64,000 nt of DNA from an uncultured Gammaproteobacteria bacterium (lineage in GTDB: Bacteria; Patescibacteriota; Patescibacteriia; Magasanikbacterales; UBA922), in NCBI GenBank assembly GCA_964522405.1, contig CAZFTR010000004.1:22349-86348 (forward strand), in the 5' to 3' direction. A program made the translations under genes and the position numbers. The notes beneath the pieces are model-generated. The model had not been told where the DNA came from and ran no database searches. It saw nothing but the letters and a program-made list of their open reading frames with translations. Position 1 is the stretch's first letter, and each line of letters opens with the position of its first letter. Of the stretch, positions 8,792 to 59,902 are shown one piece after another.

Positions 8792-10552
8792 TTAAGGAAT
8801 AAACCCACCTGCCTGCAAGTCCCAGAGCTTCTTGTAAAGCCCATTTTTGCGTTTTAAGAGTTGCTGATGCGAACCTTGTTCAACTATATCACCTTGATCA
8901 ATTAAAATGATTCTGTCCATTCTCATAATGGTTGAAAGTCGATGAGCAATTACAATAACTGTTTTATCTTTCATCAGCTTATTCAATGCATCCTGGATCA
9001 GCATCTCTGATTCTGAATCAAGACTAGATGTAGCTTCATCAAGAATAAGTATTGGAGAATTACTAAGTATTGCTCGAGCAATTGCTACTCTCTGACGCTC
9101 ACCACCAGATAATTTAACACCTCTTTCACCAACAAAGGTTTGGTACTTTTCTGGAAGAGAATCAATAAATTCATGACAATGCGCAGCTTTTGCAGCTTCT
9201 ATGACTTCTTCATCAGTGGCTTCTGGTTTTCCATATCGTATATTCTCCATCAAAGTTCTATGAAAGAGAATTGGGTCTTGTGGAACCATGCTAATTGCTC
9301 TATGAAGTGAATCCTGAGTGATTTTTCTAATATTTTGACCATCAATATTTACCTTACCTTTTGCTGGGTCAATTAATCTGAGTAGTAATTTAACAACAGT
9401 TGATTTTCCTGCCCCACTTGGACCGACTAATGCAATTCTCTCCCCTGCCTTAATTTTGAAATTAAGATTCTTGATAATTGATCTGGTTTGATGATAATTA
9501 AATCGCACTGATTCAAATTCTATCTTTCCTTTTTTAACTTCAAGTTCTTTGGCATTATAAGCATCTCGCACCTTGTGAGGAGTATCAAAAATTTCAGTCA
9601 TTTCTTCGGCATCAGCAAGTGCTTCATAGTATTTTCGGATAATTCTTCCAAAATTCCAGAGCTTCATAAATATTGCGATCAAATATGCTTGGATCAAAAC
9701 AAAATCACCAATTGTAATTATCCCCTGATTCCAGAGCTTAATTGCTATATAGAAAATGACAAACTCAAGAATAATCATCAGCAATGTCTGAACTGCTTCG
9801 AATCCTGTAGCAAGATCCCAACAAAATCTTCTTATTTTGCGTAATTCATCTGTAATTTTTTTGAATCTAAGACCTTCACGTTCATACCCAGCAAATAACT
9901 TGATAGTAGAATAATTTGTAATTGAATCTGCAAGAACACCAGTTGTTTTTGAATCCATCTCACTGCGTTGAACATCAAATTTTAACTTATACCTAGAGAA
10001 TAAAAAATTAGTAAAACAATAAATAAAAATCCAAACCAAAATAAATATTCCAAGAGCAGAATTTCTCCTCCACAGAATAATATTGATAAGACCTATTTCC
10101 ATGATGATCGGCAAAAGTTCCCAACTTATAATATCTGCAAGAGTTTCAAAGGCGCGATAAAATCTATTTACTTTCTTGACTAGTGAACCTACAAAATTTC
10201 CTTCAAAAAAACCAATAGCATGTTTGTGCATGTATGCAAAACAGGTATTTGGCAAATCAGCCATGATATGAGTCTGAAAATATGAGTTCAAAAAAGCTGC
10301 TCCACGCCAAAAAATCCAACCAATCAAATGGATAATAACTACTTTTATTAAAATTCCGATTAAGACATCTGAATTTGCTCCACTATTTAAATCATCAAAA
10401 AATTGTTTATAAAAAAGAGGCGCAATTACATTTGTAATAGAAGCTAGTATAATAAACAAGACAGTGAAAAAACCTGACTTTTTATACTTGAGCACATGTT
10501 GCCAATAAATTTTTACAGTAAGTTTTTTCCTATATTTCATAAAACTTGGCAC
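8792..10552 (-). CDS. ABC transporter, fused permease/ATP-binding exporter (MsbA-like)
   Basis: Six TM helices, then Walker A GPSGAGKST, the LSGGERQRVAIARAIL signature and a Walker B. Confidence 0.85.
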   Translation of the reverse strand: MPSFMKYRKKLTVKIYWQHVLKYKKSGFFTVLFIILASITNVIAPLFYKQFFDDLNSGANSDVLIGILIKVVIIHLIGWIFWRGAAFLNSYFQTHIMADLPNTCFAYMHKHAIGFFEGNFVGSLVKKVNRFYRAFETLADIISWELLPIIMEIGLINIILWRRNSALGIFILVWIFIYCFTNFLFSRYKLKFDVQRSEMDSKTTGVLADSITNYSTIKLFAGYEREGLRFKKITDELRKIRRFCWDLATGFEAVQTLLMIILEFVIFYIAIKLWNQGIITIGDFVLIQAYLIAIFMKLWNFGRIIRKYYEALADAEEMTEIFDTPHKVRDAYNAKELEVKKGKIEFESVRFNYHQTRSIIKNLNFKIKAGERIALVGPSGAGKSTVVKLLLRLIDPAKGKVNIDGQNIRKITQDSLHRAISMVPQDPILFHRTLMENIRYGKPEATDEEVIEAAKAAHCHEFIDSLPEKYQTFVGERGVKLSGGERQRVAIARAILSNSPILILDEATSSLDSESEMLIQDALNKLMKDKTVIVIAHRLSTIMRMDRIILIDQGDIVEQGSHQQLLKRKNGLYKKLWDLQAGGFIP

Positions 10553-51064: not shown

Positions 51065-53218
51065 CTATAATTTCTTTCTCCTGATCCTCAAGCTATTTCC
51101 CACAACTGAAACACTACTCATACTCATAGCTGCAGCAGCTATAATAGGGCTGAGTACTCCAAACATGGCAAGTGGTATTGCCACTACATTGTAGATAAAA
51201 GCAAAGAATAGATTTTGCTTAATAGAAGAAAATGTTTGACGAGAAAGTCTGATAGCTTCTACAACTTTTTGAGGATTACTCTGCATCAGCACTATACTTC
51301 CGGCTTCTATTGCCACATCTGTTCCACTACCCACCGCAATACCAAGATCTGCTTGTGCAAGAGCCGGAGCATCGTTTATTCCGTCCCCTACAAATGCCAC
51401 CACTTCTCCCTTTTTTTGCAGTTTTTGAACTTCTTCTGCCTTATGATCAGGCATTATATTTGCCACTACGTGCTCAATATCAAGTTGCTTTGCTATTGCT
51501 TGCGCTGTTTTCTCGTGATCCCCAGTAATCATATAGACATCTATATTCTGAGAACCAAGCTGCTGCACTGCTTTTTTTGCAGTGTCACGCACCACATCTG
51601 CCACAGCTACGATAGCAATTATTTTTTTATCTTCTACTACATACATTGGTGTTTTTCCATCATTTGCCAATCTCTCAAAAACTTCACTATACTTTTTGTT
51701 TTGTTCAACACCAACCTCTTCAACTAATTTAGAGTTACCAAGCTTAATACTTCTTGATTCAATCACACCCTCTACACCTTTACCAGATATTGCTCGAACA
51801 TCAGTTACTTTTTTAAGATCAAACTTATTGTTTTTTGCATATTTAGCAAATGCAGAAGCTAACACATGCTCGCTTTGAGATTCAATAGAACAAGCAAGAA
51901 CCATGATGTCTTTTTCATCTGTGTCTTTAGCAAATATCTCTATATCTGTAACAACCGGCTCGGCTTTTGTCAGAGTACCTGTCTTATCAAACATTACAGA
52001 TGTAATTTTGTGAGCAATTTCAAGACTTTGAGATTCCTTGATAAGTATTCCGTTTTCTGCACCTTTTCCGCTTCCAACCATAATAGCTGTTGGGGTTGCA
52101 AGACCAAGAGCGCACGGACAAGCAATTACAAGCACGGCAACCGCATGAATAATACTTGCCTCAAGTCCTGCTGACACCATAAACATCCAGACTAGAAATG
52201 TAGCAAGCGCTAGCAACATAACAATCGGAACAAAAACCCCAGCCACTTTGTCTGCAAGTTTTTGAATTGGAGCTTTTGAACTCTGTGCTTGTTCAACCAG
52301 CTTTATAATTTGTGAAAGCACAGTATCTTCCCCAACCTTTGTTACTTTTACTTCAATTACACCGGAACCATTGATAGTTGCTCCATAGACAAGATCGCCT
52401 ACATTTTTTTCTACCGGAATACTTTCACCTGTAAGCATTGATTCGTTTACAGAAGTTGATCCTTTTAGCACTTCAGAATCAAGTGGAATTTTCTCTCCAG
52501 GCTTTACCAGTAACAGATCTCCAACACGGATTTTCTCTACATCCATTTCTTGCTCCTCTCCATCTACAAGTACTCGTGCTTTTTTAACACCAAGCGCTAA
52601 TAGTTTTTGTATAGCACTTGAAGCCCTACCTTTACTCTTCTCTTCCAGATATTTACCAAGAAGTATAAGCGTAATAATAACTGCAGCAGTTTCAAAATAT
52701 ACATGACCATCAAAGAGCATTGCATAAACCGAGTATGCAAAGGCTGCAATCGTACCAACAGATACCAGTGTATCCATATTTGCCCGAAATCTCTTTAGCT
52801 GAATTAACATCCCTTTGTGAAACTGCCAACCAACGACAAAAACTACCCAAGCTGTCAATATAGCCATTATCATCATGACTGTTTGATTTTTCATGAGAAC
52901 AGGAACAAACATGGTCAAAAGCAGTGGCAATGTCAGAACAAAGGCAGTTATAAATTTTTTTCTTGCTTTTTGAGTAGCAGTATCATGTTGAGGCTTCTTG
53001 GCACCCTCACGCTCTACTTGGTAATCTCCTGCTTTTGAAATTGCCTCATCAATCGCCCCTTCACTCACCATATTTTCATCATACTCAACATAAGCCTTGC
53101 TCATACCATAATTAACTGATGCTTTTTTTATTCCATCAATTTTACCTAATTGTTTTTCAATATTAAGAGCGCAACTTGTACAGTGCATCCCTTGAATTTT
53201 TAAGCTATCTTTTTTCAT
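51065..53218 (-). CDS. copA: Copper-translocating P1B-type ATPase
   Basis: N-terminal HMA (GMHCTSCA), TM CPC motif, DKTGTLT and GDGINDAP. Confidence 0.9.
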
Positions 53219-53219
53219 A

Positions 53220-54557
53220 TTATTCTATTACATTAAATGAACCGCGGATCATCCCCATCCAGCAGCTAAATGAGACTGTACCTGCGCTTGTAGGAGTAAA
53301 TTCTACAATATTTTGACCAGGTGTAAGCTTTTTACTGATTCCATATTTTGGAACAATAACCTCATTTGAACAACCTGTAATTTGCTTACCATTTATAATC
53401 CATTTTACTGGTACGCCTTTTTTAATTTCAAATCTATTTGGTGTAAATCCGTAATAGTCTACATCCATTTCTATAACTTGTACTCCATTCTCAACAGCAA
53501 TACCTGAATTGTTGGATTCCCTTACTTCTCCTCCCCCAAGAACTATACCATTGGCTGCAAGTCCTGACGAGAGGGTATACCAGGCAAAAGCAAGAATAAC
53601 AAATCCAATTACTTTTTTGAGTACAATACGATCTAGGTTTTGACTTTTTGTACTCATCACACCCACCCCAAGCAAAACCGGCATAGTTCCAAAAGCAAAA
53701 AGCGCAAGTGTCATACCACCTACAAAGAAACTACCGGAAGCTACAGCAAAAAGTTGCATACTTTGTGTAAATCCGCAGGGCAAGAAAAAGGTAAATGCGC
53801 CAAGCACAACCGGAGCCATAGCATGTTCAGATTTTTTTATCTTATTCCAGTACTTAATGACTCCTTTTGGCATATGAAATCCGGTACTAGTGATAGATGG
53901 CAGAACCCCAAGAATATTTAATCCCATCCAAGCAAGAACAACAGCAATAAACACAGTAAACCAACCCATTGCGGAAATTGAAAGCTCAAAGAAATTTCCA
54001 ACTGTCGCCAACAATCCACCCAAGATAAAGAAGGCACCAATGCGACCTACGTGAAACAGTAAATGTGGTTTGGTATTTCTCTCAAACTTCGAACCTTTTG
54101 ACTGGTATTTTGCACCAAACGAGATGACAACCGCACCAACTACTGCCAAACATGTAGAAAGTGAGGCTACTATACCGACTAGAATCGCTGCGCCATAGCC
54201 AATATTTACAGTCTCAATCTCCAGAAAACTCAATATTCCTATCCATTTAAAGTATCTATATACCCAATACAGACAAAACACGACAAATAGAGACCAATAC
54301 CACTGCGCTTTGGTTGCTTTTTTCTTTGGCTGAACCTTAGAGTCAGATGTTTCAGATACCGCATATCCGAGCTTTTTAAGTTTATGCATTATCTTTCCCA
54401 TGTTCAGTGAATTTCCAGAAAATTGTATCTCGGCAATCTGTTTTTTATGACAAACAACCACTTCTTCTATATTTTCAATTCCATTGAGTTCGTCTGAAAT
54501 AATGGTCTCACAAGAGACGCAGGTCATGCCCACTATTTTAAATTGTTTTTTTCCCAT
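53220..54557 (-). CDS. Fusion protein: HMA metal-binding domain, CcdA/DsbD-type thiol-transfer membrane domain and a C-terminal cupredoxin-like domain
   Basis: HMA motif GMTCVSCE; two TM cysteines ([17 protein letters not shown]); C-terminal beta domain with GCSNEV...FSCWMGM. Confidence 0.55.
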
Positions 54558-55054: not shown

Positions 55055-55933
55055 TTATTCTGCCTTTGGTTTTACTATTTTACCTGTACTTAAATCCTTG
55101 TATGGTTGTCCAAGAGCTGTCATTTCTCTAAAAACAAACATACCGTCAGGCTCTACTGTTCCAACCTGATTCCAAAGTTGAGTTAGAGCTGGATAATTCT
55201 TTGTTTCACTTGAAAGAATAATAGTCGGCAATCCCTTTATTTGATATTTTTCTATCAATTCTTTTCCAATATTTTCAGAAATATCAAAACTCTCGATATT
55301 AGAGAAACCTAACCCAAAACGTTGTAAAATAGGTTGCTGAACAGCCACCACATCATAACAATCAGTACAAGTTTTATCGGTTATATAAATCAAATTAACC
55401 AAACCCATAGTCTGATTTTGGGCTAAATTGAAATATGGAACAATCTCTGACTCCCAAACAATAACCTTATTATTAACTTTCCGAGAACCTTTTTCAAGAG
55501 CTTGTGCTAATTTACTATTTATTTCTTCTTCAGCAACAAATATCAAAGCTGGTAATTTCTTTAATTCAAACCGCTCAATAACTTCTTTTGCTTTTTCAGT
55601 GCCAAATGTATAAATTTTATCATCACTTAATTCTACATTTTGACTACTAAGAACCTTCTTCTCAGCTGCCATATCACCACATTGCGGACAACTCTCTGGT
55701 AAAACCAATAATAACTCCCCTTCTTGTGGCTTTGTTATTTCAATTGCTTGATTTAATTTATTATTTACTGTAAATGTAAAAAATCCCATTACAATAATAT
55801 TTAGAACCACAACAATACCAAGTATTATTGCTAATATCTCAATAGTATTTTTTCTTTGTGGCCTTTTTTTCTCTTCTTTACTTTGACAACAACCCTTTTC
55901 AGGATTAAGATCTTTTTTTATTTCTTCAGTCAT
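55055..55933 (-). CDS. Membrane-anchored thioredoxin-like protein with two CxxC motifs
   Basis: N-terminal TM helix, then CPQCGD and CTDCYD in Trx-like contexts. Confidence 0.6.
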   Translation of the reverse strand: MTEEIKKDLNPEKGCCQSKEEKKRPQRKNTIEILAIILGIVVVLNIIVMGFFTFTVNNKLNQAIEITKPQEGELLLVLPESCPQCGDMAAEKKVLSSQNVELSDDKIYTFGTEKAKEVIERFELKKLPALIFVAEEEINSKLAQALEKGSRKVNNKVIVWESEIVPYFNLAQNQTMGLVNLIYITDKTCTDCYDVVAVQQPILQRFGLGFSNIESFDISENIGKELIEKYQIKGLPTIILSSETKNYPALTQLWNQVGTVEPDGMFVFREMTALGQPYKDLSTGKIVKPKAE

Positions 55934-56043
55934 AATTTATTATTTATTAATGAATAACCACCCCCTAGCCCCCCCTTGAAAAGAGGGGGAATGAATTTGT
56001 TTTCAATCACTTGTTAATTACGAGTTGTTAATTGTCAATTAAT

Positions 56044-56229
56044 TTAGCATCCCCCTACCATTTGTGGCGCAGAACCATCATCACTGAAACTTACTGCTGA
56101 TGGAGAAGATCCTAAACCGACTTCTGCTTCTACTAATTTTTTATTTACACTGGCCAGAGCCGCTGTCTGAAATGATAGAGCAATCACTGCTGCCGCAAGC
56201 ATAATTGTTAGATTTTTTTTACTGAACAT
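56044..56229 (-). CDS. Small secreted peptide ending in ...PQMVGGC
   Basis: Signal peptide (...ALASV) and a ~35-aa mature part. Its C-terminal MVGGC is identical to that of the upstream gene. Confidence 0.45.
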   Translation of the reverse strand: MFSKKNLTIMLAAAVIALSFQTAALASVNKKLVEAEVGLGSSPSAVSFSDDGSAPQMVGGC

Positions 56230-56263
56230 ATTCTATTTATTAGTTATTAATTCTTAAATAAAT

Positions 56264-57433
56264 TTAACATCCCCCAACCATACCCGGAGCTTTGGTATCA
56301 GGAACAAAACCGGATTTTTTTGCCTTTTCGCTTAAATCTTTTATCTCCTCTTCAGTTAAATTCATTGTTAGATACTTAATATCCGGAAGATAATCCTTTT
56401 TTTCACCGGAAAGTGACTCTGCCATGCGTTTTTGCATTTGCGATGGAAAATATAAACCTTTTTGTCGCATAAGCTCATAAGAAATATCTGCATTTGTAAG
56501 TTCTGGATAATTTCGAATAAGGTATGCAGCGGTTCCACGCATAGCTATTGAGTGAGCGCAACCACAAGTAGGTGTGCCATCTTCACGAACCAAGGTTTTT
56601 ACTCCACAACAAAATTCACAGGTAATGTATGGCTCTGTTCCTATGGCAACATATCTTTTCATTTCTTCATCAGTCAACTCTATTGGATTTGATCCTTGTT
56701 TGGGCGCCATTTTTGATAATTTTGCAATTGAAGCATTTATAGCATTCAAATTAGACATATCTAACCCAAGTTCCGGACCATAGAATGGTAATTGAGCGGG
56801 AGTAACCAAAGAAGCTATATCCTTTGCAAAATCACCTGAAAGAGCGATTTCACCATTCATATCATGACCAATCATAGTGTTTCCAATTTGCATGGCATAA
56901 GCCTGATTTGTTATGAAAAGTACTGCAACAAAGACAACTGCAAATTTTTGAAACAATATATGCAGATCAGCCTTTGGCAATTTCCTTGGCTGGAAATTTT
57001 TTACTAATAAAAATATTCCAATACCAAGCAAGACAATGGAAAGCAATCTAATCCACCAGAAATATGGCGCAAGAGCCAAAACTGTTGTTGAAAGTCCAAA
57101 ATATGCCAGGAAAAATACCGGGCAGACCGGACAAAGCATTGTAAACAATGCTAATATTCCTGATCCTGAACCAATTGAACATGATGCCGCATTGAACTTT
57201 CTAGCTATGGCAAATAAAGCAGTTCCAAATCCAAACAAAATTGCAAATAATCCTGCGAAAGCCAGATCAAATCCGCTCACCTCTGACATAAATGGAATTC
57301 GATACTGAATTACCGGTAATTTCCACAGCCCGAGAAACAGGGTTTGGATTCCAAAAACCGCTATTGACGATCCCAGAAACCACAACCAAAATTGCTCAAG
57401 CCAGACTATAGATATTATTTTCTTTTTTAACAT
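56264..57433 (-). CDS. Membrane protein with a TM CPVCP motif, a Cys-rich soluble domain (CEFCCG...CGC) and a C-terminal ...PGMVGGC
   Basis: 389 aa: an N-terminal polytopic domain and a C-terminal soluble domain. The last 18 nt are nearly identical to the 3' end of the 56044..56229 gene. Confidence 0.5.
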   Translation of the reverse strand: MLKKKIISIVWLEQFWLWFLGSSIAVFGIQTLFLGLWKLPVIQYRIPFMSEVSGFDLAFAGLFAILFGFGTALFAIARKFNAASCSIGSGSGILALFTMLCPVCPVFFLAYFGLSTTVLALAPYFWWIRLLSIVLLGIGIFLLVKNFQPRKLPKADLHILFQKFAVVFVAVLFITNQAYAMQIGNTMIGHDMNGEIALSGDFAKDIASLVTPAQLPFYGPELGLDMSNLNAINASIAKLSKMAPKQGSNPIELTDEEMKRYVAIGTEPYITCEFCCGVKTLVREDGTPTCGCAHSIAMRGTAAYLIRNYPELTNADISYELMRQKGLYFPSQMQKRMAESLSGEKKDYLPDIKYLTMNLTEEEIKDLSEKAKKSGFVPDTKAPGMVGGC

Positions 57434-57466: not shown

Positions 57467-57919
57467 TCATGTCTTTGTGCAAGACATATTCTTTTGTTTT
57501 TTAACCCTTAACCACATGTACCAAATACCAAATATATTTACTACAGCGCCAATCGCAAGAAATAAATCTTGATACTTACTCATAGTTGTGGCAATACCCA
57601 TAAATCCCAGAACCGGAAAAAGATCTGCAAGATGATGGGCGCAACATGCGACCATAGCCACTCCTCCAGCACTGGCAGAAGCACCTGCCATGGCCAGCTT
57701 ATTTTCGTGAACAATAAAACGCAATTTTTGAAATAAATACATTTGTATTCCAAATCCAATCATTATGGGAGCTAAAAAATACCATCTTTCCAGAAAAAAT
57801 AAAAATGGATGCAATGGATCTTTTGTAGTTAGTAGGAGCAACAAGTAATAGAATACTATCATTATCAAGAAACCAATAGAACCAATCAGATATGGATTTA
57901 GTTTTGGCTTATTCATCAT
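57467..57919 (-). CDS. Small membrane protein with an intramembrane CC pair (ACCAHH)
   Basis: Start ATGATG at 57919/57916 overlaps the upstream stop (the ORF-track start at 57955 is an extension). About four TM helices. Confidence 0.45.
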   Translation of the reverse strand: MMNKPKLNPYLIGSIGFLIMIVFYYLLLLLTTKDPLHPFLFFLERWYFLAPIMIGFGIQMYLFQKLRFIVHENKLAMAGASASAGGVAMVACCAHHLADLFPVLGFMGIATTMSKYQDLFLAIGAVVNIFGIWYMWLRVKKQKNMSCTKT

Positions 57920-58451
57920 ACCTAAGATTATTAAACTCAAGCAATACTTCTCCAACCGGCATATCTGCTATTCTGAGAATAAGGGGCTCGTCAACATATT
58001 CAAAACTTAAAATACCAGCTATGTGATGTCCACCAATAGCGTCTGAAAAGGCATTCCAAGCTATAGCTTTTTCTCCATTTAACTCTGAAATTGATTTGTA
58101 ATCAAATTCAGCAAGATTAATTCTGTGATTATCTAGATTTAGCAGAATATTTGTATTTTTCAAATCAATATCTTCAGATAGAAATTCACTGCCAAATTCT
58201 TTTTCTAACTTCTCAATATTTTCCTCTGTTATCACTTCTGCGTCAAACTGTATAAAACCAACTTGTGAATTTGCTTTTTGTACTTTTATCTCTTCTTTTT
58301 CATTTGACTGAAGATGATTTTCCAAATCTTCCATACTGCTTTCCACTACAGAATTTATATTTGACGCAGCATAGAGATCCTTACCAACTTTCACCACCAC
58401 AATCAGCACAAATCCAATTAAAAGAGCAAGCAATATCTTTTTCATAGGCAT
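57909..58451 (-). CDS. Signal-anchored hypothetical protein
   Basis: N-terminal TM helix then an acidic soluble domain; part of the same operon. Confidence 0.45.
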   Translation of the reverse strand: MPMKKILLALLIGFVLIVVVKVGKDLYAASNINSVVESSMEDLENHLQSNEKEEIKVQKANSQVGFIQFDAEVITEENIEKLEKEFGSEFLSEDIDLKNTNILLNLDNHRINLAEFDYKSISELNGEKAIAWNAFSDAIGGHHIAGILSFEYVDEPLILRIADMPVGEVLLEFNNLRYDE

Positions 58452-58463
58452 AAATTAATTGAT

Positions 58464-58904
58464 TTACCAATTTTTACAACATTCAATTATACGTTTTACA
58501 ATTCCACTAAGTCTTGAATTTGATCTATAAAAATATGCAAATCCAAACAATGTCCAAAGCGCCAGCAACAAGGCAATGGATTTTCCAATATTTTCAGTGT
58601 GTCCAAGAACTACAAACACCAGAAAAGTGGCTGTTAACAAAAAAGGCAAGCGGAAAATTAAAAAATCCTTTTTTACCTTCTTCTCAAGTAGATAATACAA
58701 CCCAACCACGCTCTGTCCCATAAGCGCTGCTATAATTATTGGATATTCAAATTTTCCTAACCAGTATAACATAAGTAAAATAATCCAAGTTATACTAACA
58801 CTGGCGCAAATCGCGCAAATTTCAAGCTTTGTGAGTCTTTTGAATATCAAAAATACTGGAAACAGAGCTGAAATGCTGACTAACACTAGAAATACAGGAC
58901 TCAT
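58464..58904 (-). CDS. Small polytopic membrane protein with a TM CxxC (CAIC)
   Basis: 146 aa, four TM helices, overlaps the upstream gene by 4 nt (ATGA). Confidence 0.45.
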   Translation of the reverse strand: MSPVFLVLVSISALFPVFLIFKRLTKLEICAICASVSITWIILLMLYWLGKFEYPIIIAALMGQSVVGLYYLLEKKVKKDFLIFRLPFLLTATFLVFVVLGHTENIGKSIALLLALWTLFGFAYFYRSNSRLSGIVKRIIECCKNW

Positions 58905-59425
58905 AGAGCAAATTGCATAATAAGAGAAGTTATGAATAGTAAAACAAAGGTGATGGCAATACCTTGATAAGGAATTATTTTGCCATTTCTTAATTTTGAC
59001 AACTCTCTACTCAAGTAAGGAGAAACAAACATGATTAATGTACCTATGATCACACCAATCAAAAAACGATTGAACATATAAGTACGATTAAACATGGCTC
59101 CATACTCACCAAACCAATATATATTTACAGATGTATAATGTCGCATCATGGGCATAAGCGGGAGAATGGTTGAAAGAAAAACCAGAGCTGCCAAAATTGG
59201 TTTTTGGTGCTTTATATATTTCTTTTTTACCAATTTTACTATCCACAAAGACAATGCTAGAGCAAAAGCACCAATCAGAATTCCCACAACATAGGTACTA
59301 ACACCGATATATGCCGCGCCAACAGCCAGAGCTCCTGCTCCCGCAGTACACAATGGGCAATGAGCTTTGGCAACACCCGGAATAAGAGCAAAAACCACTA
59401 ATAAACCAAAGAATTTTTTCTTCAT
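58901..59425 (-). CDS. Membrane protein with an N-terminal CPLC motif
   Basis: Signal/TM helix, then HCPLCTAGAG and four TM helices. Confidence 0.45.
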   Translation of the reverse strand: MKKKFFGLLVVFALIPGVAKAHCPLCTAGAGALAVGAAYIGVSTYVVGILIGAFALALSLWIVKLVKKKYIKHQKPILAALVFLSTILPLMPMMRHYTSVNIYWFGEYGAMFNRTYMFNRFLIGVIIGTLIMFVSPYLSRELSKLRNGKIIPYQGIAITFVLLFITSLIMQFAL

Positions 59426-59434
59426 ATTTACAAA

Positions 59435-59902
59435 TTAAAGTTCTGTAAATAATGAAGTGTTTCCCTCTGCGTCAACGCGATGAATTTTAAACACAGCCTT
59501 TGGTCCCGGCATTCCAGGAGAACCGGATGGCATTCCCGGCATGGCGATCATATGCTCGTCTGAATCCATCATCATTTCAATTCCCTTCACTGGAATATGC
59601 CCTTCTACAACTTTTCCATCTTCAAAAACAGAAGTGTGACAACTTTCCATATGAGCTGGAACACTGTGCTCTGCTTTTATAGCTGCCATATTTTCTGTTT
59701 CAATTACCTCCACATCATAACCCTCGCGACGAAGATAAGTAGCATAATTAGCACAACATCCGCAAGTTGGTGACTTATACACTTTTACAGATTGAGCTGA
59801 AGCAATCCCGGCATTTTCTGAAGTATTAAACAATCTGGGAGCAAAGAGCGCAGCTCCAACCAGAAGCACCACAATCGCAATTACTTTTTTTTGTTTTTTC
59901 AT
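59435..59902 (-). CDS. DUF411/CopG-like periplasmic metal-binding protein with a Met/Pro-rich tail
   Basis: CGCC, SCHT and EGHIP motifs of DUF411; C-terminal MMMDSDEHMIAMPGMPSGSPGMPGP. Confidence 0.65.
   Translation of the reverse strand: MKKQKKVIAIVVLLVGAALFAPRLFNTSENAGIASAQSVKVYKSPTCGCCANYATYLRREGYDVEVIETENMAAIKAEHSVPAHMESCHTSVFEDGKVVEGHIPVKGIEMMMDSDEHMIAMPGMPSGSPGMPGPKAVFKIHRVDAEGNTSLFTEL

What the first reader, a model, noticed from the sequence alone, without database searches (positions are those of the whole stretch)
56044..57433. Two adjacent genes end with the same C-terminal motif P-x-MVGGC and near-identical last 18 nt
56264..57433 ends ...DTKAPGMVGGC (ATGGTTGGGGGATGTTAA). The 61-aa secreted peptide 56044..56229 ends ...SAPQMVGGC (ATGGTAGGGGGATGCTAA). 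A conserved absolute C-terminal Gly-Gly-Cys is unusual. It could be a sorting or processing tag, a terminal metal or thiol ligand in a redox operon, a Gly-Gly exposed after Cys removal (ThiS/MoaD-like chemistry), or the footprint of a duplication. The small gene could be a carrier peptide or substrate of the larger membrane protein.
Basis: seen in the sequence. Interest (0 to 1): 0.6.

Follow-up and report, generated by a model that had tools for sequence, protein, structure and literature searches.

The report
Shared cysteine-ended tail, copper operon pair
Two neighbouring genes in a copper-resistance operon of an ultra-small bacterium end in the same eight-residue, cysteine-terminated tail; this pairing is conserved and co-evolving across hundreds of CPR bacteria and DPANN archaea and marks an undescribed protein family that most likely handles copper or thiols outside the cell.

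Summary
The 389-aa protein belongs to an unannotated family (about 300 clusters at 50% identity; no Pfam, NCBIfam, PDB-sequence or Foldseek-PDB match). The family has an invariant C-x2-C-C…C-x-C-x-H centre and a C-terminus (L/A)-P-x-(M/Q)-V-G-G-C. In about 80 of 87 loci from CPR bacteria and DPANN archaea, one or two small single-TM proteins follow it. These resemble it only in the last eight residues. Rare tail variants (QVGGC, MAGGC, QQGGC) co-vary between partners, while about half of the synonymous codons differ, so selection acts on the protein and gene conversion does not explain the identity. An unbiased metagenome sample of tail-encoding DNA found the tail only on these two protein types, so it is not a general sorting tag. 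A tandem-CxxC thioredoxin-like protein follows in 59 of 84 loci. CsoR or BlaI-like repressors, CopA and DsbD-like genes are common neighbours. In the window the family domain is fused to a CPxC 4-TM protein that is encoded separately elsewhere. Best reading (inferred): a flexible arm presents a terminal thiolate to the Cys5His centre, in cis or from the partner, for Cu(I) hand-off, with the thioredoxin keeping it reduced. A pure thiol-disulfide relay is the main rival.

The parts
56264..57433 (-). Gene for the 389-aa long-form protein: an N-terminal CPxC 4-TM module, an anchor helix, the Cys5His-centre domain and the C-terminal arm.
   Evidence: ORF. 68 homologues, all hypothetical proteins of Patescibacteria. 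No Pfam or NCBIfam family. AF2 full-length model pLDDT 81.
56984..57433 (-). N-terminal membrane module (about aa 1-150). It is homologous to a stand-alone 4-TM 'G-C-P-(S/T)-C-G-A-P' protein that other lineages encode downstream in the same operon, so this is a fusion.
   Evidence: BLAST E 7e-7 to 1e-4 to stand-alone proteins. hhalign probability 92%, E 5.5e-7. Helices in the AF2 model.
57119..57133 (-). Intramembrane C-P-V-C-P motif (aa 101-105) of the fused membrane module.
   Evidence: C101, P102, C104 and P105 are invariant among 8 long forms. The matching C106/C109 are invariant in the stand-alone family. Read directly from the sequence.
56309..56836 (-). Predicted outward-facing all-alpha Cys5His-centre domain (about aa 200-375).
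   Evidence: Domain-only AF2 model pLDDT 92, pTM 0.89. No Foldseek match in the PDB (best E 1.1, TM<0.2). No PDB sequence match. Positive-inside test on 64 short forms, p=4e-6.
56552..56620 (-). Invariant centre C272-x2-C275-C276 ... C290-G-C292-x-H294.
   Evidence: Invariant in 192 of 192 full-length representatives and in alignments A1 and A4.
56267..56290 (-). C-terminal arm of the large protein: A-P-G-M-V-G-G-C (aa 382-389), followed by the stop codon at 56264-56266.
   Evidence: The tail block has pLDDT about 78 in the domain model and about 70 in the full-length model, so it is not predicted as free disorder.
56044..56229 (-). Gene for the 61-aa partner: an N-terminal signal-peptide-like or TM segment, a Ser/Ala/Gly-rich linker of about 27 residues and the same arm.
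   Evidence: ORF. Orthologues of 57-65 aa at the same position in L001, L003, L007-L017. Exactly one Cys after the TM in 79 of 80 partners.
56047..56070 (-). C-terminal arm of the small partner: A-P-Q-M-V-G-G-C (aa 54-61).
   Evidence: Similarity between partners is confined to the last 8 residues.
55055..55933 (-). Membrane-anchored tandem thioredoxin-like protein (CPQC and CTDC), the third conserved member of the cassette.
   Evidence: Weak Thioredoxin Pfam hits. Present in 58-59 of about 85 loci, directly after the small gene. Two invariant CxxC motifs and two invariant Pro residues in 54 of 54 copies.
57467..57955 (-). 162-aa multi-TM protein with a 'CCAHH' motif, a frequent cassette neighbour of unknown family.
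   Evidence: No Pfam family. Found in 32-33 loci.
51065..54557 (-). Downstream copper genes of the same operon: an HMA-DsbD_2-cupredoxin protein (53220-54557) and a CopA-type P1B ATPase (51065-53218; CPC, YN and MSxSS motifs are visible in the translation).
   Evidence: Pfam PF00403, PF13386 and PF13473. ORF translation. No terminator-like site between the genes.
59435..59902 (-). Upstream DUF411 (CopG-like) protein with a C-G-C-C motif, a copper-context marker in the same transcription direction.
   Evidence: PF04214, E 2.9e-13. CopG function as summarised in PMC8456105.

Best explanation
The two genes encode the core of a dedicated thiol-based copper-handling cassette that is predicted to face outward and is found in CPR bacteria and DPANN archaea. 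The large protein carries a new all-helical domain with an invariant Cys5His centre (CxxCC...CxCxH). In this genome the domain is fused to a CPxC 4-TM membrane protein. The small protein is little more than a membrane tether or signal peptide plus a flexible linker. Both end in the same eight-residue docking peptide, (L/A)-P-x-(M/Q)-V-G-G-C-COOH. I propose that this arm places its terminal thiolate, with the Met at position -4, at the Cys5His centre. The large protein's own arm would do so in cis and the partner's arm in trans, so that Cu(I) passes by ligand exchange between identical motifs, as between a metallochaperone and its target. The tandem-CxxC thioredoxin-like protein, with the CPxC and DsbD-like membrane proteins, would keep these exposed thiols reduced. 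What is shown: motif conservation, the obligate gene pairing, co-variation of the tails under protein-level selection, restriction of the tail to these two protein types, the fusion, and the copper and redox neighbourhood. What is inferred: docking of the arm at the centre, Cu(I) as the ligand, and the direction of transfer.
For: (1) The tail is close to universal in the family, and the linker before it is unalignable between lineages. (2) About 80 of 87 loci have one or two same-strand small genes with the same tail; these have one TM, a 30-60 aa low-complexity linker and exactly one Cys after the TM. (3) Similarity between partners is confined to positions 0 to -7, and within-genome identity exceeds shuffled partners at -3, -4, -6 and -7. 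QVGGC, MAGGC and QQGGC variants are shared by both partners. Synonymous codons differ in 48% of cases in the last five codons, and codon identity at shared residues upstream is 39%. This fits one common docking site. (4) Tail census: 69 family genes, 62 small 1-TM proteins, 9 contig-end cuts, 1 small-like ORF and 4 chance hits, with no other cargo. (5) C272, C275, C276, C290, C292 and H294 are invariant in 192 of 192; there are exactly 6 Cys after the TM in 60 of 63 short forms. CC and CxC spacings are typical of Cu(I)-thiolate sites (my own knowledge; CopG's cysteine-bridged Cu4 cluster, PMC8456105). (6) Context: a CopA-type ATPase, HMA-DsbD_2-cupredoxin and DUF411 in the window. At least one copper marker lies within 6 kb in at least 32 of 85 loci. 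CsoR-like repressors sit next to the family gene in 18 loci, 14 of them with the C...H-x3-C signature. A tandem thioredoxin is present in 58 of 85 loci. (7) The AF2 tail has pLDDT 70-78, which is not typical of disorder. (8) The family domain is predicted to lie outside the cell.
Against: There is no direct evidence of metal binding. Position -4 also tolerates Q (34 of 192), W, F and I, so it may be a packing residue and not a ligand. Explicit copper genes were seen in only about 38% of loci, although that is a lower bound. The most constant neighbour is a redox protein, which fits a pure disulfide relay equally well. I could not read model coordinates, so docking of the arm at the centre is untested. 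Mutual information between tail and domain columns is dominated by phylogeny. The topology of the small partners is not settled by charge bias (p=0.11). About three family members apparently lack the tail yet keep the centre, and Saccharibacteria loci lack the small partner.
Confidence: 0.42

Rival explanations
1. Thiol-disulfide relay without metal transfer. The terminal Cys is a swinging-arm redox shuttle that forms mixed disulfides with a Cys of the CxxCC/CxC centre. The small partner is a tethered protein thiol, and the tandem thioredoxin with the CPxC and DsbD-like membrane proteins passes electrons. The cassette would repair or form disulfides during copper stress.
For: The tandem thioredoxin with two invariant CxxC motifs and two invariant Pro residues is the most constant neighbour. 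The fusion to a 4-TM CPxC protein recalls DsbB/VKOR or CcdA modules. DsbD-like genes occur in 18 loci. There are 6 Cys in the large protein and 1 in the partner. DsbA-like and rhodanese neighbours appear in some loci.
Against: Known shuttle arms use Cys pairs or Cys-Sec, not a single Cys (my own knowledge). CsoR, CopA, DUF411 and cupredoxin point specifically to copper. CC and CxC spacings are unusual for redox-active disulfides. The two models are not exclusive.
Confidence: 0.3
2. Post-translational modification or anchoring signal. The terminal Cys is lipidated (a lipobox-like V-G-G-C used by Lgt) or otherwise processed, tethering both proteins by their C-termini.
For: MVGGC fits the permissive PROSITE lipobox pattern. 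Lgt-like genes lie in or next to the cassette in 5 of 84 loci, against about 1 expected.
Against: The Cys is the last residue and follows a hydrophilic linker, not a signal-peptide h-region. QVGGC and MVG(D/E/K)C variants break the lipobox rule. The tail occurs on only two protein types, unlike sorting signals. Lgt is absent from 79 of 84 loci. G at -2 is fixed, which a lipobox does not require.
Confidence: 0.1
3. Enzyme and substrate (RiPP-like). The small protein is the precursor of a secreted or tethered copper-binding peptide, and the Cys-centre domain modifies its terminal Cys. The enzyme's own tail acts as an autoinhibitory or priming mimic.
For: A Sec-type N-terminus on a short peptide in a copper locus parallels the bufferins (PMC11626156). 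There is strict adjacency and tail co-variation. Some loci have two tandem partners.
Against: No MNIO (DUF692), DUF2063, radical-SAM, YcaO or peptidase genes are in the cassette. RiPP enzymes are not known to carry their substrate's core motif. Most partners stay membrane-anchored and often have a cytoplasmic Cys/His-rich N-terminus.
Confidence: 0.1
4. A local duplication or gene-conversion footprint, or a purely structural disulfide, with no shared function.
For: 16 of 18 terminal nucleotides are identical in the window. Within-genome synonymous codon identity (52%) exceeds that of shuffled partners (34%).
Against: The pair and the motif are conserved across two domains of life. 48% of synonymous codons differ within genomes, and identity stops abruptly at -7. 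The partner has only one Cys after its TM, so an intramolecular structural disulfide is impossible for it.
Confidence: 0.02

Closest known systems
Atx1/CopZ-CopA metallochaperone-target pairs (HMA domains, MxCxxC)
   Same: A small protein and a domain of a larger membrane protein in a cop operon carry the same cysteine motif, which is the logic that allows Cu(I) hand-off by ligand exchange. The window's own CopA and HMA-DsbD_2 proteins have such domains.
   Different: Neither partner has an HMA fold. The shared element is an 8-residue C-terminal peptide with a single Cys, not a folded domain. The location is predicted to be outside the cell. Only the motif is shared, with no overall homology.
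C-terminal cysteine or selenocysteine arms of flavoprotein disulfide reductases (MerA C-terminal Cys pair; mammalian TrxR Gly-Cys-Sec-Gly). Recalled from my own knowledge.
   Same: A flexible, glycine-containing C-terminal extension carries a thiol(ate) between the solvent and a buried Cys centre.
   Different: There is no pyridine-nucleotide disulfide oxidoreductase fold and no flavin or NAD(P)H site. The arm has one Cys, not two. A separate protein carries a second copy of the arm.
Scs/DsbD-type envelope thiol-redox systems that confer copper tolerance (ScsABCD). Recalled from my own knowledge.
   Same: Copper-linked operons that combine a membrane electron conduit (DsbD or CcdA-like), thioredoxin-fold CxxC proteins and small accessory proteins on the outer face of the membrane.
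   Different: The Cys5His-centre family and its tail partner have no counterpart in Scs and no detectable homology to it.
[quoted passage not shown] 2020)
   Same: A closely spaced Cys motif (CxCC in CopG, CxxCC and CxC here) in a cop-operon protein. A DUF411 gene lies in the same operon.
   Different: CopG has a thioredoxin-like fold. The family here is all-helical with no structural neighbour and has the terminal-Cys arm.
Bufferins, Sec-exported RiPP copper chelators (PMC11626156)
   Same: Short Sec-signal peptides with conserved Cys that are encoded in copper-stress loci and bind copper outside the cytoplasm.
   Different: Bufferins need MNIO and DUF2063 enzymes and carry thiooxazoles. None of these genes is present here, and most partners here remain membrane-anchored.
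Engineered C-terminal X3-Cys (GGGC, GGEC...) N3S chelators (PMC6060960)
   Same: A C-terminal Gly-Gly-Cys supplies a thiolate plus backbone amides as a compact metal chelator. The natural variation at -1 (G, S, A, D, E, K) resembles the engineered series.
   Different: The engineered chelators are synthetic, bind Tc/Re(V)=O, and have no docking residues (L-P-x-M-V). Their relevance to Cu(I) is uncertain.

Membership tests
Sortase LPXTG sorting signal | An LPXTG pentapeptide followed by a hydrophobic segment and a positively charged tail | tested here: not met
   The motif L-P-x-M-V-G-G-C ends the protein at the stop codon, and nothing follows it.
Sortase, exosortase and other C-terminal sorting tags | The tag is present on many unrelated cargo proteins | tested here: not met
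   145 tail-encoding sites were sampled by DNA pattern. Only the Cys-centre family and small 1-TM partners carry the tail, apart from 4 chance hits. Only 2 of 964 ORF segments in the 64-kb window carry it.
Bacterial lipoprotein (lipobox/Lgt) | The lipobox Cys lies directly after the h-region of an N-terminal signal peptide | tested here: not met
   The Cys is the C-terminal residue and follows a 30-60 aa hydrophilic Ser/Ala/Gly linker.
Bacterial lipoprotein (lipobox/Lgt) | [LVI][ASTVI][GAS]C-type sequence, and an Lgt gene present | tested here: inconclusive
   MVGGC fits the permissive pattern, but QVGGC and MVG(D/E/K)C do not. Lgt-like genes lie within 6 kb in 5 of 84 loci.
ThiS/MoaD/ubiquitin-like sulfur carriers | A beta-grasp fold ending in Gly-Gly | tested here: not met
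   The small protein is a signal or TM segment plus a low-complexity linker. The large protein's domain is all-helical. Neither has a ThiS Pfam hit.
ThiS/MoaD/ubiquitin-like sulfur carriers | A cytoplasmic location with an E1-like adenylyltransferase or JAMM peptidase partner | tested here: not met
   No such gene appears in any neighbourhood. The family domain is predicted to lie outside the cell.
HMA (CopZ/Atx1) metallochaperones | A ferredoxin-like HMA fold with MxCxxC (PF00403) | tested here: not met
   Neither protein hits PF00403, although PF00403 is detected in the neighbouring 445-aa protein.
HMA (CopZ/Atx1) metallochaperones | Donor and acceptor carry the same metal-binding motif (a functional analogy) | tested here: met
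   Both partners carry the identical 8-residue Cys-terminated motif, which co-varies within genomes.
Bufferin / MNIO-modified RiPPs | MNIO (DUF692) and DUF2063 genes adjacent to a DUF2282 or BUF_6/12Cys precursor | tested here: not met
   No such Pfam families occur in the window operon or in the annotated homologous loci. Definition taken from PMC11626156.
PCYCGC domain (PF13798) | A match to the PF13798 profile | tested here: not met
   No hit even at E<=5 for 23 members. hhalign of the family profile against a genuine PCYCGC protein (L072 1546-1977, PF13798 E 3.5e-29) gives probability 1.9%.
DsbD/Scs-type envelope thiol-redox copper-tolerance systems | A thioredoxin-fold CxxC protein and a DsbD or CcdA-like membrane protein in the operon | tested here: met
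   A tandem CxxC thioredoxin-like protein in 58-59 loci. PF13386 DsbD_2 in the window. DsbD-like genes in 18 loci.
DsbD/Scs-type envelope thiol-redox copper-tolerance systems | Homology of the two proteins in question to ScsA-D or DsbA-G | tested here: not met
   No Pfam or NCBIfam family for either protein. No PDB sequence or fold match.
Cu(I)-responsive regulon (CsoR) | An adjacent CsoR-family repressor with the Cys-His-Cys Cu(I) ligand signature | tested here: met
   CsoR-like genes occur in 18 loci, often immediately upstream of the family gene, and 14 of 18 have C...H-x3-C. There is none within the window operon itself.

The most novel reading that the evidence does not exclude
The cassette is a previously unrecognised kind of relay on the outer face of the membrane, specific to ultra-small CPR and DPANN cells. 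A new-fold Cys5His receptor domain and one or two membrane-tethered 'arm-only' proteins share a co-evolving, cysteine-terminated docking peptide. The peptide acts as a transferable baton for Cu(I) or reducing equivalents, so the arm-only proteins would be protein-tethered substitutes for the low-molecular-weight thiols that these organisms are thought to lack. A still stranger variant that the evidence does not exclude is a new C-terminal cysteine modification shared by the two domains of life.
Probability: 0.3. Interest if true: 0.85.

Novelty: new variant of a known kind. Interest (0 to 1): 0.68.

Why it matters
CPR bacteria and DPANN archaea make up a large share of microbial diversity, yet most of their conserved proteins have no known function. 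This work defines a compact, testable cassette: a Cys5His-centre protein, one or two arm-only partners and a tandem thioredoxin, often with a CPxC membrane protein. It comes with a sharply defined sequence signature, clear mutational targets (C389, M385, G387, C276, H294) and a probable physiological trigger, copper. If the shared arm is a hand-off device, it would add a minimal motif-only solution to the known repertoire of metallochaperones and redox shuttles. It would also help explain how cells without outer membranes or glutathione-type thiols protect exposed cysteines from copper. The shared distribution in CPR and DPANN is a clean case of cross-domain gene sharing between episymbiont lineages. 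The C-terminal motif also gives annotators a simple rule for recognising short genes that gene callers handle inconsistently: the same small gene is recorded as 52 aa and as 61 aa, and it was not called at all in locus L002.

Full report
OBSERVATION. Both ORFs lie on the minus strand exactly as described. 56264..57433 encodes a 389-aa protein ending ...DTKAPGMVGGC (ATGGTTGGGGGATGTTAA). 56044..56229 encodes a 61-aa protein with a signal-peptide-like N-terminus (MFSKKNLTIMLAAAVIALSFQTAALA/SVNKK...) ending ...SAPQMVGGC (ATGGTAGGGGGATGCTAA). Sixteen of the last 18 nucleotides are identical, and the two differences are synonymous. Among 964 stop-to-stop segments of at least 30 aa in the 64-kb window, these are the only two that end in GGC.

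THE LARGE PROTEIN BELONGS TO AN UNDESCRIBED FAMILY WITH AN ALMOST UNIVERSAL TAIL. Neither protein matches Pfam or NCBIfam, and 23 diverse members give nothing even at E<=5. A word-indexed search found 68 proteins, all 'hypothetical' and from Patescibacteria. Of P0001-P0067, 58 end MVGGC, 5 MIGGC, 2 QVGGC, 1 MVWGC and 1 MVGEC; only the most distant hit, P0068, lacks the tail. These counts correct a miscount in my running commentary. An exhaustive profile search found 300 representatives at 50% identity. Of the 145 newly listed, 128 end x-x-G-x-C (73 MVGGC and 27 QVGGC, with rare S, D, A, E or K at -1; A, Q, R, S or I at -3; and W, F or I at -4). The rest are mostly truncations or read-through artefacts past an intact motif, plus about three apparently genuine tail-less members. 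The linker before the tail cannot be aligned between lineages. In 192 full-length representatives, C272, C275, C276, C290, C292, H294 and P330 are invariant. G387 and C389 were invariant by my selection filter. Short forms have exactly six Cys after their anchor helix in 60 of 63 cases.

THE SMALL GENE IS A CONSERVED PARTNER. Homologue contigs show a 57-65-aa gene directly downstream with the same architecture and tail. In distant loci the downstream gene is unrelated in sequence (97 and 133 aa) but still ends ...MVGGC. A scan of one genome per species found 350 relatives. Of the 80 loci kept, 40 carry Patescibacteria-type names (Magasanik-, Peregrini-/Peri-, Buchanan-, Uhr-, Parcu- and Saccharibacteria), 27 carry DPANN-type names (Woese-, Pace- and Nanoarchaeota), and 13 are labelled 'uncultured Gammaproteobacteria', which I suspect are mislabelled bins. 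In about 80 of 87 loci, one or occasionally two same-strand small ORFs (51-140 aa) with the tail follow the family gene. They share an architecture: an optional cytoplasmic N-terminus that is often Cys/His-rich (MDCC..., HEQHECESC, HHDHCANC), one TM helix, a 30-60-residue Ser/Ala/Gly-rich linker, and the tail, with exactly one Cys after the TM in 79 of 80. Their orientation is not settled by charge bias (p=0.11), so an outward-facing tail is inferred from the signal-peptide-like forms and from the shared tail.

SELECTION, NOT GENE CONVERSION. Across 82 non-redundant pairs, identity between partners is above background only at positions 0 to -7 (C, G, G, V, M/Q, x, P, L). True against shuffled partners gives 0.98/0.88 at -3, 1.00/0.87 at -4, 0.82/0.61 at -6 and 0.59/0.27 at -7, and identity falls to background from -8. 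Rare variants are shared by both partners in the same genome: QVGGC (L041, L042, L050, L055, L057), MAGGC (L036, L040, L061) and QQGGC (L075), with two exceptions (L017, L060). Yet 48% of synonymous codons in the last five codons differ within genomes (for example CAA against CAG), and only 39% of codons are identical at shared residues from -6 to -15. The modest excess over shuffled partners (52% against 34%) can be explained by shared codon bias or occasional conversion. Both tails therefore appear to be constrained by one co-evolving recognition surface.

THE TAIL IS NOT A GENERAL TAG. A metagenome scan for DNA encoding P-x-M-V-G-G-C-TAA returned 120 loci with 145 matches. Of these, 69 are family genes and 43 are small 1-TM proteins with a family gene in view. 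Another 19 are small 1-TM proteins, mostly on 1-3-kb contigs. On the two longer contigs I checked, the family gene is present with an SGMVGGC tail that the pattern could not match. The remaining matches are 9 cut by contig ends, 1 small-like ORF and 4 chance hits. No other cargo family appeared.

CONTEXT. Clustering of the neighbouring ORFs shows a membrane-anchored tandem thioredoxin-like protein in 58-59 of about 85 loci, directly after the small gene. It has two invariant CxxC motifs (C82/C85 and C189/C192) and invariant P128 and P236 in 54 of 54 copies. Other recurrent neighbours are a 'CCAHH' multi-TM protein (32 loci), the CPxC 4-TM protein (23 loci, plus the fusions), BlaI-like and M56/M48 BlaR-like regulators upstream (about 29 loci), CsoR-like repressors (18 loci, often immediately upstream; 14 of 18 with C...H-x3-C), CopA-type ATPases (17-18 loci) and DsbD-like proteins (18 loci). 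At least 32 of 85 loci hold a recognised copper gene within 6 kb, which is a lower bound. In the window the operon appears to run from about 60400 to 51065 with no terminator-like site between genes. It contains DUF411/CopG-like, several Cys-motif membrane proteins, the pair, the tandem thioredoxin, DUF302, HMA-DsbD_2-cupredoxin and a CopA-type ATPase with CPC, YN and MSxSS motifs.

INTERPRETATION. What is shown: a dedicated, deeply conserved three- to four-gene cassette in which two proteins share a co-evolving eight-residue, Cys-terminated peptide. One of them carries an invariant Cys5His centre. The cassette is embedded in copper and thiol-redox loci. What I infer as most likely (0.42): the peptide is a docking arm whose hydrophobic L/P/M/V residues position the terminal thiolate at the centre, the large protein's own arm in cis and the partner's in trans, for Cu(I) hand-off by ligand exchange, as in metallochaperone-target pairs. 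The thioredoxin, CPxC and DsbD-like components would keep the thiols reduced. CC and CxC spacings fit Cu(I)-thiolate chemistry (compare CopG; PMC8456105), and C-terminal X3-Cys sequences are competent compact chelators (PMC6060960). A plausible split of the seven conserved ligands is four Cys for a structural or first metal site, and C276, H294 and the arm Cys for a CsoR-like trigonal Cu(I) site. That split is speculation.

RIVALS. The main rival (0.30) is a metal-free thiol-disulfide relay, and the two models may both be true. Lower-ranked rivals are C-terminal lipidation or another modification (0.10; Lgt-like genes in 5 of 84 loci, but the motif context is wrong) and a RiPP-like enzyme and substrate pair (0.10; no known modifying enzymes present; bufferin comparison). 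A duplication footprint, ThiS/MoaD-type chemistry and a sortase-type signal are rejected on the tests listed in the membership table.

NOVELTY AND SCORE. I found no family model, structure or paper describing the domain, the tail or the pairing. The biological theme, cysteine-based handling of copper and thiols outside the cytoplasm, is known, so I classify the finding as a new variant of a known kind. I give 0.3 probability that the mechanism (a shared-tail hand-off, or a tethered protein thiol) is a new category. Interest: 0.68.

Noticed in passing
window 55955-55990 (minus strand), between the small gene and the thioredoxin-like gene: A G/C-rich hairpin, CCCCCUCUU-UUC-AAGGGGGGG, in an otherwise AT-rich intergenic region. 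It has no U-tract and is not more stable than shuffled sequence (z=-0.59). It might be a processing or stability element that sets different expression levels within the operon.
   Followed up: partly
window 55055-55933 (N-terminus ...EKGCCQSKEEKK...); small partners in L065, L069, L077, L083, L085, L086 (MDCC...), L005, L031, L039, L050, L055, L057, L058, L071: Several cassette proteins (the tandem thioredoxin, many small partners and some family members such as P0065) carry a Cys-Cys or His/Cys-rich motif at the predicted cytoplasmic N-terminus, just before their TM helix. This suggests metal or redox sensing on the inner face as well.
   Followed up: partly
L005 10842-11648, L042 4976-5776, L009 8271-9179, L037 268-1062, L068 9341-10186: Lgt-like (PF01790) genes lie inside or next to the cassette in 5 of 84 loci, including one locus labelled Nanoarchaeota. 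About one would be expected by chance.
   Followed up: partly
window 57467-57955, 58464-58904 and 58901-59425 (all minus strand): Three more unannotated membrane-protein families with cysteine motifs recur with the cassette: a 162-aa 'CCAHH' protein (32 loci), a 146-aa protein with CAIC and a C-terminal ...ECCKNW (10-12 loci), and a 174-aa protein with a signal peptide and CPLC (15 loci).
   Followed up: partly
L008-L087 (record titles): The family and its partner are shared by CPR bacteria and DPANN archaea, which implies cross-domain transfer. 13 loci are labelled 'uncultured Gammaproteobacteria' and 2 'Methanosarcinales', yet they carry CPR- or DPANN-type cassettes, so these are probably mislabelled automated bins.
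   Followed up: no
L072 1546-1977 and 2407-3129; L078 5401-7292: In a Saccharibacteria subfamily (tail ...EFPxFLPQMVGGC) the small partner is absent. CsoR lies directly upstream. In L072 the downstream genes are a PCYCGC-domain protein (PF13798, E 3.5e-29) and a DsbA-like protein. In L078 the downstream gene has DUF1573 and a weak CcmH-like match.
   Followed up: partly
L099 471-2842: This locus has DUF1573, DUF1573-rhodanese, a small tail partner and the thioredoxin-like gene, but no Cys-centre family gene between them. The partner can therefore occur without an adjacent family gene. Outward-facing DUF1573-rhodanese proteins also precede the family gene in L001 and L003.
   Followed up: no
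L003 1158-2542: A reverse transcriptase (RVT_1) next to a bAvd gene, which looks like a diversity-generating retroelement, lies about 5 kb upstream of the cassette in a 472-kb contig.
   Followed up: no
P0178, P0205, P0194, P0135, P0078 (family representatives): Some database entries continue past an intact ...MVGGC or ...IGGC motif (for example ...LPSMVGGCKINRKW...). These are likely stop-codon read-through calls, sequencing errors or rare natural extensions.
   Followed up: no
window 56044-56229; L088 2233-2391; L002 around 9199-9384: Gene callers treat the small gene inconsistently. It is recorded as 52 aa in one Logan assembly and 61 aa in another, and it is not called at all in L002, although L001 from the same organism has it.
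   Followed up: yes
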